Below, one piece after another: positions 1-44,960 of a stretch of 64,000 nucleotides of DNA. Within the stretch, counting starts at the first letter, position 1. Every line of letters starts with the position of its first letter. This DNA is from Cetorhinus maximus. Its lineage: Eukaryota. A program made the position numbers and the translations under genes. The stretch spans positions 34,906,001-34,970,000 of the forward strand of contig NC_135899.1 in assembly GCF_964194155.1 (NCBI RefSeq), written 5' to 3'. Below the pieces are notes generated by a model. It did not search any database, was not told where the DNA came from, and worked only from the letters and a program-made list of their open reading frames with translations.

Positions 1-130
1 ATAAGCACATGAGGGAGAAAGGAACAGAAGGATATGCGGATAAGGTGAGAGGAGGCTTTTGTGAAGCATAAACTGCAGCATCGACCAACTGGGCCAAATG
101 GCCTGTTTCTGCACTGTAATTCTATGTATG
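1..130 (+). mobile_element. CR1 LINE 3' end fragment carried within the duplicated ZF cassette
   Basis: Tail ...GGGCCAAATGGCCTGTTTCTGCACTGTAATTCTATG is typical of CR1 3' ends; the same piece recurs at ~14260-14450 (+) and ~33760-33950 (-). Confidence 0.65.
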
Positions 131-905
131 TAACTTTCCATGGTTGGATTTGAACTCACAATCTCTGCATGGTTAATCCAGCACCAGAGCAATTCAGCTG
201 CCATATCCGGAGACACATTTATTGAAATGTCTTTTAATTCCTTCTTTAAAGATTTTACCTGAAGGCCTCGACCTTTTCCAAAAGCCTGGGCTTAGATTTG
301 ATAGTTTTGTCCAGTGCTGTGGCTGATAGCTGAATTTGGGATGTGTAGTCTGAGTGAGTGCAGTGTATATAATTTCCCAGAATAAACCAGAACCCTTCAA
401 TCAGCTACACTGAAGCAATATTTCCCTTAGCTTCTAGCACTTCCTGCCCAGCGTGTTTTCTGCAAATAATTTTGGAAAACAAAGGGAGAAATTTCAAAAT
501 CTCCATTCAATTAACATTTTCCCTGAGTATTTTTTATATTAAACACATACCCTAAGGGTAAAACTGGTCTTCATCAGCATGACTCAAACTCATGGTGAAT
601 TGATAGCCAGTTATACACTCCACCCGACTGTTTTTCCCATTGCCCTCAGGGTGCCTGTGATATTGGGGGCTGGGCAGAGGAAAGAAAGTAGCCACGTTGT
701 CTGCTCCTGGTCACTATCCAGTGTCCCTGCCGGAAACAGAGGGTGTGTGACAGTCTGAGGAAAAGAAAGGATTTGAATCTGATTCCCACATGCGGAATGG
801 CAGATTGACACTCATGTGAAACAGTCTCTTACGGAGGAGTCAGCCCCTTCTGCAAAGGAGGAGCGGGAGTTGGAGGAATTCATGTTTCTTTATCCTGTTC
901 TACAG

Positions 906-2826
906 AAGGATTGCACCATACTACAGCATCGAATACAGAGAGGATGTACATCGCAGATAGATCCTGATCATCACCTAAGGAACAAGTGCACAGCTATGGG
1001 AAGACATCCAGTTCCTTCACAGCATTGCACAGAAAAGGTTGGACAGTGAAACCATCATCTGGAAATCGGTTGGGTCAGGGGAGTTTTGACATATCATCAG
1101 ATCTGAAACTGGTCAGTGGCGTGGAACCTTCCATCAGGACCAACCTTTCCGAAGGTTCGTCCGTGGGCGATCGGTCACGGTGAGGCTGGGAAGAAGTGTG
1201 AGTGGGCTCCAAGTATGGTGAAAGGTTCAATTATTCATCGAACCTCATGTACCACTGACTCATTCCTACAGGTGAGATGCTATTCAGATGTGAGGTGTAT
1301 GTGAGGAGGTCTCCACAGGCTCATATGATCTCCTAAGACGCAAAGGTGCAACTGTCTTGAGCACTGTTAAGACAAGGGAACCTGCATGGCAGAGAAACCC
1401 TTCAAGTATAAGGTTCGTGATAAAGCTTTTTTGGCATCTTCAAACCTCCTGAGACACCAAAAGAACCACACCAGGGACAAACCCTTCAATTGTGATGTTT
1501 GTGAGATGGCTTTTACATAGTGCTCTGATCTCCTGAGGCCCCAGAGGGGAGACATCATTTACGTACGAGGTGTATGACAAATCATTCTCACAGTCATCGA
1601 CCCTCCATGTACACCAACACATTCACACAGGGGAGAAGCCATTCCCATGTGGATTATGTAACAAATCATTCCCGAGATCATCGCAATTCCTCATGCACCA
1701 GCAGATACACACTGGGGAGAAACCATTCATGTGTGACACATGCAACAAATCATTCTTGAACACATCGTGCCTCCATCAACACCAACGCATTCACACAAGG
1801 GAGAAACCATTCATGTGTGAGGTGAACAACTAATCATTCTCCAAGTCATGGAACCTCTGCACACACCAACGCATTCACACAGGGGAGAAACCATTCACAT
1901 GCAAGATGTGCCACAAATCATTTTCACAGTCATCGAACCTCCGGGCACACCACCACATTCACACAGGGAAGAAATGATTCTCTTGCAAGGTCTGTAACAA
2001 ATCATTCTTACAGTTAATGACCCTCCATGTACATGAACGCATTCACGCTGGGACAAAACCATTCATGTGTGGTGTGTGACAAATCATTCTTGAAGTCAAC
2101 GACCCTCTGCGCACATTCACATAGAGGATAAACTATTCCCATGCATATTATGCAACAAGTCATTCTCAAATTAATTGCAATTCCTCAGGCACCAACACAG
2201 ACAAACAGAGAAACCATTCATGTGCAAAATGTGCGACAAATCGTTCTTAAACTTATCATCCCTCTGTGCACATCAATGCATTCAGACAAGGCTGAAACCA
2301 TTGAAATGCAAGGTGTGCAACAAATCATTCTCGCAGTCATCGAACCTCTGCGCTCACCATCGCATTCACACAGGAAAGAAACCATTTACATGCAAGGAGT
2401 GCGATAAATCATTCTCACAGTTAGTGACCCTCCACAACCACCAACGCATTCACACAGGTGAGAAACCATTCACATGCAAGCTGCACAACAAATCATTCTC
2501 ATAGTTAATGAACCTCTTGGTGCATTGGAGGATTGACATGGGAGAAAACCTTCAGGTGTGAGGTGTGTGACAAGGCTTTCATACAGTTAGCAGATCTCCT
2601 GGTCCATCAATGCACTCACACAGGGGAGGAAGCCTATCACTGTGAGTTCTGTAATAAAACCTTAACACACTTGTCGGACCTCCTGGAACATCAACGAACC
2701 CACATGGGAGACAAACCCTTCCAGTGTGATGTGTGCCAGGATTGTTTCACCTACTCCTCCTCTCTTGCCATACACCGACGTTTCCACACGGACTTGGAGC
2801 CAGGTCACCTGCTTCCATTACACTGA
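906..2826 (+). pseudogene. C2H2 zinc-finger array pseudogene, copy A (last exon)
   Basis: Acceptor TTTCTTTATCCTGTTCTACAG at 905; ATG GCA GAG AAA CCC at 1386; in-frame TAG at 1518-1520 plus further stops and frameshifts; TGEKPF-linked fingers in ORFs 1570-1833, 2175-2504 and 2533-2826; ends PGHLLPLH* like the copy E tail. Confidence 0.9.
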
Positions 2827-2998
2827 GAGATGTCTGTTGTTTACACTTCAGAGTTCTCACAGGGGAGCAGTGTCTACATCAAACCTCTCCTACAATCAGT
2901 CCAATTGTTTCAAGAAGGCCAATTTAGATCACCAGATCGCCAAACATCACCAAAAGCAGACATCAATATGTATAGAAGTTCCTGCTTATGCACAGATG

Positions 2999-43451: not shown

Positions 43452-44324
43452 ATGGAAGTGAAACCGTTCAAGTGTGAGGTGTGTGACCGAGTCTTCCCAA
43501 AGTTATCGACACTCGTGCAACATCGACACATCCACACAGGGGAGAAACCATTCACGTGCGAGGTATGCGACAAATCCTTCACATGGTCATCGAACCTCCG
43601 TGAGCACCAACGCATTCACACAGGGGAGAAACCATTCACATGTGAGGTGTGCGATAAATCATTTAGGCAGTCATCAGCCTTCTCTGCACACCAGCATATA
43701 CACACAGGGGAGAAACCATTCAAGTGCGATGTTTGTGACAAATCATACTCCTGGTTAATGAACCTCTGTGAACACCAACGCATTCACACTGGGGCAGAAG
43801 AGGTCAAGTGTAAGGTTTGTGACAAAGGCTTCACAAACTTCAGGAGCCTCCAGCTACATCAGACAATCCACACAGGAGAGAAACACTTCAATTGTGAGGT
43901 TTGTGATAAAGCTTTCGCGACGTCTTCAACCCTCCTTCGACACCAGAGGATTCACACAGGGGAAAAGCCCTTCAAGTGTGAAATTTGTGAGCTGGCTTTC
44001 TCCCAAACCTCTGATCTCCTGAGGCACCAGAGGATTCACACAGGGGAGAAACCCTACAAATGTGAGGTGTGCGATTGGTCCTTCACACAGTCATCGACGC
44101 TGGTAAAACATCGACGCAGTCACACTGGAGAGAAGCCGTTCAAGTGTGAGGTATGTGACAAATCATTCTCGGAATCATCACACCTCCGCAGCCACCGACG
44201 CATTCACACTGGAGAGAAACCATTCACGTGTGAGGTGTGCGACAAGTCATTCTCGCGTTCGTCGACACTTCGCGCACATCAGTGCATCCACATTGGGGAG
44301 AAGCCAGTCATGGACAAGGTGTGA
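43452..44324 (+). CDS. C2H2 zinc-finger protein, copy F (290 aa, 10 fingers), close paralog of B
   Basis: ATG at 43452 ([11 protein letters not shown]) is equivalent to the B start; acceptor at 42988; a frameshift ends the ORF at GEKPVMDKV* and leaves two fingers out of frame (44325-44465). Confidence 0.88.
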   Translation: MEVKPFKCEVCDRVFPKLSTLVQHRHIHTGEKPFTCEVCDKSFTWSSNLREHQRIHTGEKPFTCEVCDKSFRQSSAFSAHQHIHTGEKPFKCDVCDKSYSWLMNLCEHQRIHTGAEEVKCKVCDKGFTNFRSLQLHQTIHTGEKHFNCEVCDKAFATSSTLLRHQRIHTGEKPFKCEICELAFSQTSDLLRHQRIHTGEKPYKCEVCDWSFTQSSTLVKHRRSHTGEKPFKCEVCDKSFSESSHLRSHRRIHTGEKPFTCEVCDKSFSRSSTLRAHQCIHIGEKPVMDKV

Positions 44325-44484
44325 TAAATCATTCTCAGACTTATCGTCCCTCTGTACACACCAACAGATTCACACGGGAGAAACCTTTCCCATGTGAGGT
44401 GTGTGGCAAGTACTTCTCGAGATCCTCGGATCTCCTGTTCCATCAGAAGATCCGCACAGGAGTGAGTCTTCAATTGTGAGCTTA

Positions 44485-44960
44485 GCGTGGGGAAAGCTGT
44501 GCTCTAACTGCAAGAAGCTGAACCACTTTGCACATGCACTTCATCAGATCAAATAAGAAATTGTAAATCACATTCTTGGAACAGCCGAAAAAGATTTTGA
44601 TGAAAGAATGAATGAGTTGTTGGCACAAAAAGAAGCCATTTTGAAGTTGTTATCTCAAAAAGAGAATTTAAAATGTTTTGAGTCTGGAAAATGAACTTAG
44701 AAATGAGGATGTGCCTACAGCTAAAAGAGGAGACAACTTAACTATGGACTTAACTGAGACTTTCTTTGTAGAGTTTAAAAATGAGAAAGTTACAGACATG
44801 GAGACTAGTGAGGTTCAAAAGCTGAAATCAGCACAGACTGTTTTAAAAAGTGAGCTTGAATATTCACCTGCGAATAAGAATGAAGAATCTTCTTTTGCAG
44901 ATGGAACTTTGGATATCCGTGTTTCCCATTACAGCAACAGTTTTACTTCAACCTGTGTAT
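44485..44960 (+). mobile_element. Gypsy-type gag relic 3' of F
   Basis: AWGKLCSNCKKLNHFAH knuckle at 44485-44535 followed by E/K-rich coding-like sequence; homologous to 8601-8880, which has an internal deletion. Confidence 0.65.

What the first reader, a model, noticed from the sequence alone, without database searches (positions are those of the whole stretch)
1..44960. Effector-less (KRAB-free) tandem ZF cluster under birth-and-death in a TE-dense region
Seen: six copies of one cassette in mixed orientation, three open and three dead; the open ORFs begin directly at the first finger with no N-terminal domain. Known: tetrapod KRAB-ZFP clusters evolve this way while tracking transposons. Inference: this could be a non-KRAB counterpart of that system in a cartilaginous fish, acting by competitive binding or an unknown cofactor. 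Function cannot be read from the sequence.
Basis: partly seen in the sequence, partly recalled or inferred. Interest (0 to 1): 0.7.

Follow-up and report, generated by a model that had tools for sequence, protein, structure and literature searches.

The report
Shark finger-only zinc-finger gene cluster
These six genes are a slice of a shark cluster of likely several hundred genes whose intact members encode only DNA-reading zinc fingers with no known silencing domain; their shared start region is likely kept uniform by DNA copying between copies, and whether they police transposons is untested.

Summary
Confirmed and extended; the scan has noted similar finger-only clusters on other DNA of this genome and others. 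The six copies (B, E, F open; A, C, D broken) belong to a cluster at about 33.4-39.0 Mb of contig C22, with 56 cassette hits in 664 kb, 23 of them intact. Contigs of probable RNA runs join it by a GT-AG splice to the exon that holds the fingers, 440 nt before the start codon. All 43 intact ORFs have an in-frame stop 4-53 codons before the ATG, so no effector exon can be read in through that junction. Finger backbones are under purifying selection (dN/dS 0.10-0.25); base-contacting residues run at 0.6-1.0, so positive selection is not shown. The region is not richer in repeats than controls on the same contig. New here: about 300 bp around the first splice donor is nearly identical among paralogs (median 1.8% versus 12% elsewhere in the intron), and its shared variants are mostly one-directional G-to-C changes (9 of 15 versus 10 of 214). 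This fits a recombination hot spot that could drive cluster turnover. Transposon targeting remains untested.

The parts
1..2830 (+). Copy A: intron 3' part, acceptor (first exon-2 base 906), leader and broken array of about 18 finger units; no exon-1 module linked upstream
8900..10159 (-). Copy B ORF, 419 aa, 12 canonical fingers, starts MEEKRFKC
10160..10628 (-). Copy B exon-2 leader (469 nt), 5-7 stops in each frame, two decayed fingers at its 3' end
12129..12872 (-). Copy B exon-1/promoter module (U); donor after base 12588; its 282-nt post-donor stretch equals the family majority
13542..16620 (+). Copy C: intron remnant, acceptor (15233), broken array; head-to-head with B, no U module of its own
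23650..25538 (-). Copy D: broken array, leader, acceptor (24852), intron 3' part
25536..27314 (-). Copy D U module (donor after 26812), split by an about 0.9 kb insertion similar to the 3' part of the Penelope-like element at 48.9-49.8 kb
31567..32544 (-). Copy E ORF, 325 aa, 11 fingers, followed by a frameshifted tail down to about 30900
32545..32984 (-). Copy E exon-2 leader (440 nt); the acceptor at 32984 is the splice site seen in RNA-type contigs
32985..35401 (-). Copy E intron 1 (2417 nt, GT-AG); holds a conserved block (33420-33640) and the near-invariant post-donor stretch (35120-35401)
35153..35448 (-). Homogenised interval with one-directional G-to-C shared variants; candidate recombination hot spot
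35402..35850 (-). Copy E exon 1 and promoter-like region (CCAAT-, CRE- and ETS-like words, motif names recalled); ends in ATG|GTGAGT; 5' end not determined
39200..39690 (+). CpG-rich promoter-like element with a ZNF143-type word (motif name recalled) upstream of F; found at only some copies
40141..40857 (+). Copy F U module, 5'-truncated; donor after 40175
42274..43451 (+). Copy F intron 3' part, acceptor (42989) and 463-nt leader
43452..44324 (+). Copy F ORF, 290 aa, 10 fingers; close paralog of B (85%)

Best explanation
This is a large tandem family of spliced zinc-finger genes whose intact members encode fingers alone and turn over by duplication and decay, with a shared first exon likely homogenised by gene conversion at a recombination hot spot, and with proteins that would act by occupying DNA sites, possibly in repeats. 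Steps. (1) Shown for family members, not for B, E or F individually: exon 1 is spliced onto the finger exon. (2) Shown from sequence: the leader is closed in all frames, so the protein starts at the first intact finger; the exon-1 ATG gives only a short upstream ORF (14 codons in 31 of 42). (3) Inferred: ribosomes reinitiate or scan past the upstream ORFs. (4) Shown: selection keeps the finger scaffold while contact residues diverge (355 different four-residue fingerprints in 568 fingers). (5) Inferred, about 0.6: double-strand breaks near the promoter are repaired from other paralogs, which homogenises the module, leaves a strand-biased G-to-C signature and also produces duplications, deletions and inversions. 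(6) Inferred, about 0.4: the proteins bind transposons or other repeats and block access or recruit partners through finger surfaces.
For: Splice joint 35402/32984 with GT-AG ends in one contig each of 3 of 4 runs (2 studies), and a loose end matching exon 1 in the fourth run. In-frame stop 4-53 codons before the ATG in 43 of 43 intact ORFs. Alternative acceptors between that stop and the first finger have a pyrimidine share of at most 0.71, median 0.47 (42 genes), against about 0.9 for the used acceptor (read). KRAB: 4 matches among 150 of 152 candidates scored, none in the cluster. dN/dS 0.10 linkers, 0.25 other backbone, over 127 finger pairs in 15 disjoint gene pairs. The post-donor module lies upstream of 22 of 23 intact and 10 of 33 other cassette hits, p = 1e-6. 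Median paralog distance 0.018 post-donor versus 0.121 in the 3' intron. Post-donor distances do not correlate with gene-body distances (Mantel r -0.25 to 0.06), while body segments correlate 0.19-0.35; 49 of 105 site pairs fail the four-gamete test. Shared post-donor variants are C/G in 9 of 15 versus 10 of 214 in the body, p = 9e-8; diverged paralogs never carry C at the 7 sites they resolve. Strand-asymmetric C>G near meiotic breaks is reported in humans (PMC7615360, PMC11922761; passages).
Against: The runs are only guessed to be RNA, were laid at 82% likeness, and may come from related species; the best holder of any kind had 46% of the words. Only 15 of 49 joints were listed, contigs also cover the intron, and the last 175 nt of the leader and the ORF were not covered by the lay, so a further splice near the ATG is not excluded. 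Translation is not shown, and leaders carry several upstream ATGs. Contact-residue dN/dS is 1.02 (0.64 against synonymous change in the same codons), not above 1, and finger pairing used non-contact identity, which biases backbone values down. Rare post-donor variants show no C/G excess (3 of 58), the mirror-image bias on the other side of a break is not established, and broken genes give a mixed answer on conversion versus selection. No repeat enrichment and no binding evidence.
Confidence: 0.6

Rival explanations
1. The genes are finger-only transcription factors with ordinary gene or promoter targets, or weakly selected binders, and have no special link to transposons; the cluster grows mainly because its shared module promotes unequal exchange.
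For: Repeat density equals controls. Contact residues are not above neutral. No corepressor motif. 33 of 56 cassette hits lack an intact ORF.
Against: Backbone purifying selection shows the proteins matter. Across metazoans ZNF number tracks retroelement number independently of accessory domains (PMC10547256, sections 4, 6, 10 read).
Confidence: 0.3
2. A small effector exon is spliced in through an acceptor just before the ATG, as in FiNZ or KRAB genes, and was missed.
For: Emerson and Thomas name missed small distant exons as one cause of apparent finger-only genes (PMC2604467, passages).
Against: The dominant listed joint runs to the acceptor 440 nt upstream, which is near-invariant in full-length hits. 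An in-frame stop lies within 4-6 codons of the ATG in 18 of 43 genes and within 53 in all. Nearby AGs lack a pyrimidine tract. Exon-1 and intron frames have no Pfam match over cut-off.
Confidence: 0.07
3. The near-invariant post-donor stretch is kept by purifying selection on a regulatory element or structured RNA, not by conversion.
For: The module is tied to intact genes. Contigs under a second organism label match it closely (3 differences in 168 letters). Two broken genes have decayed post-donor copies (13 and 15 mismatches of 282).
Against: Selection does not explain 14 of 19 shared variants being C/G in a graded series from all-G to all-C, nor decoupling from the gene body. One clearly decayed gene keeps 1 mismatch in 282. 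No Rfam match in the window.
Confidence: 0.3
4. The cassette is itself a mobile element or a set of retrocopies.
For: Mixed orientation (29 + and 27 -) and sharp 5' borders; 485 and 553 first-look candidates.
Against: Copies keep an intron of variable length with different insertions. All scored matches lie on C22 33.4-39.0 Mb or three other, probably unplaced contigs (43 and 40 matches); none in 200 kb of controls. No significant inverted similarity between exon 1 and the intron block.
Confidence: 0.03

Closest known systems
Cyprinid FiNZ-ZNF family, zebrafish Chr 4q (Wells et al. 2023, PMC10547256; passages, sections 4, 6, 10 and supplement rows read)
   Same: Hundreds of clustered, lineage-specific tandem C2H2 genes without KRAB; one upstream exon joined to one finger exon; rapid turnover.
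   Different: FiNZ genes carry a 28-aa acidic domain from the upstream exon in frame; here the upstream exon adds nothing to the protein. FiNZ genes show positive selection and transposon derepression on knockdown; neither is shown here. The paper counts 475-3586 ZNF ORFs in eight cartilaginous-fish assemblies but its main text has no occurrence of 'chondrichth' or 'cartilag'.
Tetrapod/sarcopterygian KRAB zinc-finger clusters (KRAB-TRIM28)
   Same: Clustered tandem arrays with TGEKPF linkers in one exon, birth-and-death, divergent contact residues.
   Different: No KRAB in the cluster; no spacer or effector before the fingers; contact dN/dS not above 1.
Poly-ZF genes with no annotated N-terminal domain (Emerson and Thomas 2009, PMC2604467; passages read)
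   Same: Finger-only predicted products in lineage-specific expansions; short gene conversions among paralogs reported.
   Different: That paper leaves open whether such genes are real or mis-annotated; here a splice junction and closed leader frames argue for real finger-only products, and conversion is concentrated at the 5' module.
Strand-asymmetric C>G mutagenesis at human meiotic hot spots (PMC7615360, PMC11922761; passages read)
   Same: C:G to G:C changes with strand polarity near sites of break repair.
   Different: There it is seen as rare or de novo mutation on both sides of a break; here as shared variants spreading among paralogs, with one side only resolved and no excess among rare variants.

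Membership tests
KRAB zinc-finger genes | KRAB domain N-terminal to the array | tested here: not met
KRAB zinc-finger genes | Tandem C2H2 array with canonical linkers in one exon, clustered | tested here: met
KRAB zinc-finger genes | Positive selection on base-contacting residues | tested here: inconclusive
   dN/dS 1.02 pooled (0.64 within class), four times the backbone; not above 1; no codon-model test available
KRAB zinc-finger genes | Binding to transposons and TRIM28-dependent silencing | not testable with these tools
   no binding data or predictor
FiNZ-ZNF genes | Upstream exon adds an N-terminal domain in frame with the fingers | tested here: not met
   exon-1 ATG frame stops after 9-89 codons in 42 of 42; splice seen
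FiNZ-ZNF genes | Sequence similarity to the FiNZ domain | not tested
   no FiNZ profile or sequence was at hand
SCAN-ZF genes | SCAN domain joined to the fingers | tested here: not met
   none among the listed families for B, E, F; leader closed. The genome search scored only 150 of 4987 candidates, dispersed, one with a stop at C22:38.86 Mb, so it does not exclude SCAN-like pieces in the cluster
BTB-ZF genes | BTB domain joined to the fingers | tested here: not met
   2 of 150 scored matches (218 candidates) lie in the cluster; both frames end without fingers
Birth-and-death multigene family | Interspersed intact and independently broken paralogs with selection on the intact ones | tested here: met
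   23 of 56 hits intact; backbone dN/dS 0.10-0.25
Meiotic recombination hot spot | Local conversion peak with mosaic haplotypes | tested here: met
Meiotic recombination hot spot | Mirror-image strand asymmetry on both sides of a centre | tested here: inconclusive
   G-to-C downstream; upstream sites few and polarity mixed
Meiotic recombination hot spot | Measured double-strand breaks in germ cells | not testable with these tools
   needs DMC1 or SPO11 mapping

The most novel reading that the evidence does not exclude
Sharks run a genome-defence repertoire of hundreds of zinc-finger proteins with no effector domain at all, and the repertoire is reshuffled by a recombination hot spot built into the shared first exon of every gene, which leaves a one-strand G-to-C scar sweeping through the family.
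Probability: 0.25. Interest if true: 0.8.

Novelty: new variant of a known kind. Interest (0 to 1): 0.52.

Why it matters
Every expanded vertebrate zinc-finger family studied so far uses an N-terminal recruiting domain (KRAB, KRAB-like, FiNZ; PMC10547256, PMC11603059, passages read). A family with splice-supported finger-only products makes testable whether DNA occupancy alone can do the job, and what the state before KRAB looked like. The homogenised 5' module is also practical: one probe or antisense oligo could address most of the family. If the G-to-C series is a hot-spot footprint, it gives a sequence-level record of where meiotic breaks fall in a cartilaginous fish and a mechanism for cluster turnover.

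Tried and rejected
No RNA holder on record as RNA was listed; this is no evidence either way. Contig depths were not used to rank exons. Rfam: 0 matches in the window. Protein search with B: best 120 of 536 hits are generic finger proteins at 32-57% identity, and only the 7930 best candidates were scored, so it says nothing on the family's range. Exon-1 frame: one hit, a hypothetical Scyliorhinus torazame gene model that uses other frames of exon 1 and the leader and has no Pfam match; read as evidence that the module exists in catsharks, not as a protein. Read-through leader of B against 1.84 billion representatives: 3 weak hits; the best was inspected and is an unrelated repeat protein, so no lost effector domain was recognised. 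The exon-1 ATG is probably not an ancestral start: 7 of 47 copies have ACG, and only 2 of 6 diverged paralogs have T there. Inverted similarity between exon 1 and the intron block: not above shuffles. Invariant first finger as a cofactor handle, suggested by earlier notes: first fingers are 56% alike versus 60% for all fingers. Counting variant changes on a gene-body tree failed because the tree is a star (0 of 17 inner branches supported; 20 genes). The Fisher table used a miscount (14 of 20); one search gives the corrected tables. Paper searches listed no paper describing shark finger-only clusters or their concerted 5' ends; the library lacks most subscription papers, and 3 supplementary files of PMC10547256 were not searched. 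No structure or complex prediction was run: the fold is known and no partner is proposed.
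Full report
Observation. A six-frame scan finds six C2H2 arrays between 1.3 and 44.5 kb, three on each strand. B, E and F are open; A, C and D are broken by stops and frameshifts. All share about 1.15 kb upstream of the array.

Scale. The window is G000:C22:34,906,001-34,970,000 in a 3.99 Gb genome. A search with F gave 309 matches (135 of 15,115 candidates scored; 150 rows listed), nearly all at C22 31.8-39.0 Mb. The upstream part gave 485 candidates and 43 matches, and exon 1 gave 553 candidates and 40 matches, all at C22 33.4-39.0 Mb or on three other contigs. 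In 664 kb of contiguous cluster DNA there are 56 acceptor-anchored hits, a few of them halves of one split copy; 23 lead to an ATG-started ORF with 7 or more fingers. Scaling up gives roughly 450-500 copies and about 190 intact genes (inference). Orientation is mixed, 29 + and 27 -. The only protein hit to an exon-1 frame is a Scyliorhinus torazame gene model, which supports a shark origin.

Gene structure. Searching for repeats specific to the cluster revealed a module of about 900 bp (U) upstream of the cassettes, in the same orientation and absent from 200 kb of controls. It ends an exon with ATG|GTGAGT. Contigs of four runs guessed to be RNA were laid on the region upstream of E. A joint skips 2417 bases between 35402 and 32984 with GT-AG ends in one contig each of X1, X2 and X5 (two studies); X3 (third study, another organism label) has a loose end at the acceptor that reads as the end of exon 1. 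These are family transcripts at 82% likeness or more, not shown to be from E or from the window's species. 15 of 49 joints were listed, and the ORF and the last 175 nt of the leader were not covered. The module is upstream of 22 of 23 intact and 10 of 33 other hits; in the window B, E and F have it, A and C lack it, and D's is split by an insertion.

No effector. After the acceptor come 440-469 nt with 4-8 stops in each frame in B, E and F. In 43 intact ORFs (23 from contiguous DNA, 20 from loci picked for similarity to F) an in-frame stop lies 4-53 codons before the first ATG; 26 of 43 start 7 residues before the first Cys, and tails are 1-63 residues. The exon-1 ATG opens only an upstream ORF, 14 codons in 31 of 42. 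The last 170 nt of the leader hold two decayed fingers (profile E-values down to 1e-20; one weak hit in reversed controls), so an older array began further 5'. The rest of the leader matches nothing credible. KRAB matches lie outside the cluster; the best one resembles the PRDM9 type (likeness recalled). Two BTB frames in the cluster carry no fingers.

Selection. Over 127 colinear finger pairs in 15 disjoint gene pairs, dS is 0.31, and dN/dS is 0.10 in linkers, 0.25 in other backbone and 1.02 at positions -1, 2, 3 and 6 (0.64 against synonymous change in those codons). For B versus F, pS is 0.25, pN 0.16 at contacts and 0.065 elsewhere. Pairing on non-contact identity biases backbone values down, and distant pairs may match non-orthologous fingers. 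The proteins are maintained and diverge in specificity (355 fingerprints in 568 fingers), but an arms-race signal is not shown.

Transposons. The window holds a Penelope-like element (RT and weak GIY-YIG) and a CR1-like RT (class names recalled). Measured by matches to 150 kb of control DNA, controls score 0.22-0.39, cluster blocks 0.22-0.31 over all bases and 0.29-0.41 outside gene modules, and window 1-44960 0.15-0.22. The measure sees only families present in the controls. Local density gives no support to the transposon idea; support is indirect, from the metazoan-wide correlation in PMC10547256 (sections 4, 6, 10), whose seven-species binding prediction included no shark.

Homogenised 5' end. 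Median paralog distance is 0.018 in the 282 nt after the donor (29 copies), 0.049 and 0.075 in exon 1, 0.064 in an intron block, 0.121 in the 3' intron and 0.083 in the leader, all below synonymous distance between even close arrays (0.14-0.35). Diversity falls smoothly to a minimum just inside the intron. Distances there are uncorrelated with the gene body, and 49 of 105 site pairs show four gametes, versus 21-38% elsewhere. The body tree is a star and does not pair B with F. Among 49 U copies, shared variants in the pre-defined post-donor segment are C/G in 9 of 15, versus 10 of 214 in the body (p = 9e-8); in an interval chosen afterwards (35153-35448) 14 of 19 versus 5 of 130. Haplotypes grade from all-G to all-C, and seven diverged hits never show C at the 7 sites they resolve, so the change is G to C on the sense strand. 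Rare variants have an ordinary spectrum (3 of 58 C/G). This fits repair of breaks near the promoter from paralogs, with strand-biased C-to-G change or biased mismatch handling; such asymmetry is reported at human hot spots (PMC7615360, PMC11922761; passages). Selection on a regulatory element is a live rival (one search is mixed), and the two can act together.

Comparison and verdict. It works like a KRAB or FiNZ cluster in layout and turnover but is a member of neither. Large ZNF counts in cartilaginous fishes are in print as supplement rows; searches listed no description of this architecture. The scan has noted finger-only shark clusters many times, once with alike front ends; a word search for the strand-asymmetric signature returned nothing. 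Verdict: real, a new variant of a known kind; architecture well supported (about 0.85), conversion hot spot likely (about 0.6), transposon targeting open (about 0.4).

Noticed in passing
window 46500-49800 +: Penelope-like retroelement with RT (Pfam RVT_1) and a weak GIY-YIG match, frameshifted; a fragment like its 3' part sits inside copy D's first intron (25794-26671).
   Followed up: partly
window 55500-57650 +: CR1-like LINE fragment with RT match; class name recalled.
   Followed up: partly
window 50790-51060 -; also C22 about 34.890 Mb and 36.794 Mb: A second finger family with different repeat wording (HTGERPFTC.VCGKGF type) is interspersed; broken in the window, open nearby, and linked to the CpG-rich element and a diverged copy of the exon-1 end.
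   Followed up: partly
window 39200-39690 + and about 9 copies in 664 kb: CpG-rich element with a ZNF143-type word; occurs in either orientation relative to the U module, so possibly a two-way promoter.
   Followed up: partly
L135 and L136 (C22:38,146,316-38,147,248 and 38,727,791-38,728,447, - strand): Two near-identical BTB-domain frames without fingers inside the cluster; look like BTB-BACK exons (family recalled), truncated.
   Followed up: partly
L051-L053 (C34:9.12-9.40 Mb): Three KRAB matches in tandem on another contig; the best reads like the PRDM9-type ancestral KRAB (likeness recalled). Relevant to how hot spots are placed in this species.
   Followed up: partly
window 33420-33640 - (and 42340-42550 +): A second conserved intron block (median 6.4% versus 12.1% beside it) with open frames on the antisense strand; one contig joins it on the opposite strand to the exon-2 acceptor. 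Unexplained.
   Followed up: partly
genome-wide: 4987 SCAN-like candidates dispersed over many contigs, probably gag-like parts of LTR elements (origin recalled).
   Followed up: no
window 21430-22377, 37000-38800, 59205-59827: Tandem arrays: 27-bp CA-rich, 27-bp C-rich and a 59-bp unit (10 copies, 92%).
   Followed up: no
L002-L134 intact ORFs: Several arrays contain internal duplications of finger blocks (repeated fingerprint runs, e.g. in the 23-finger gene at C22 35.34 Mb).
   Followed up: no
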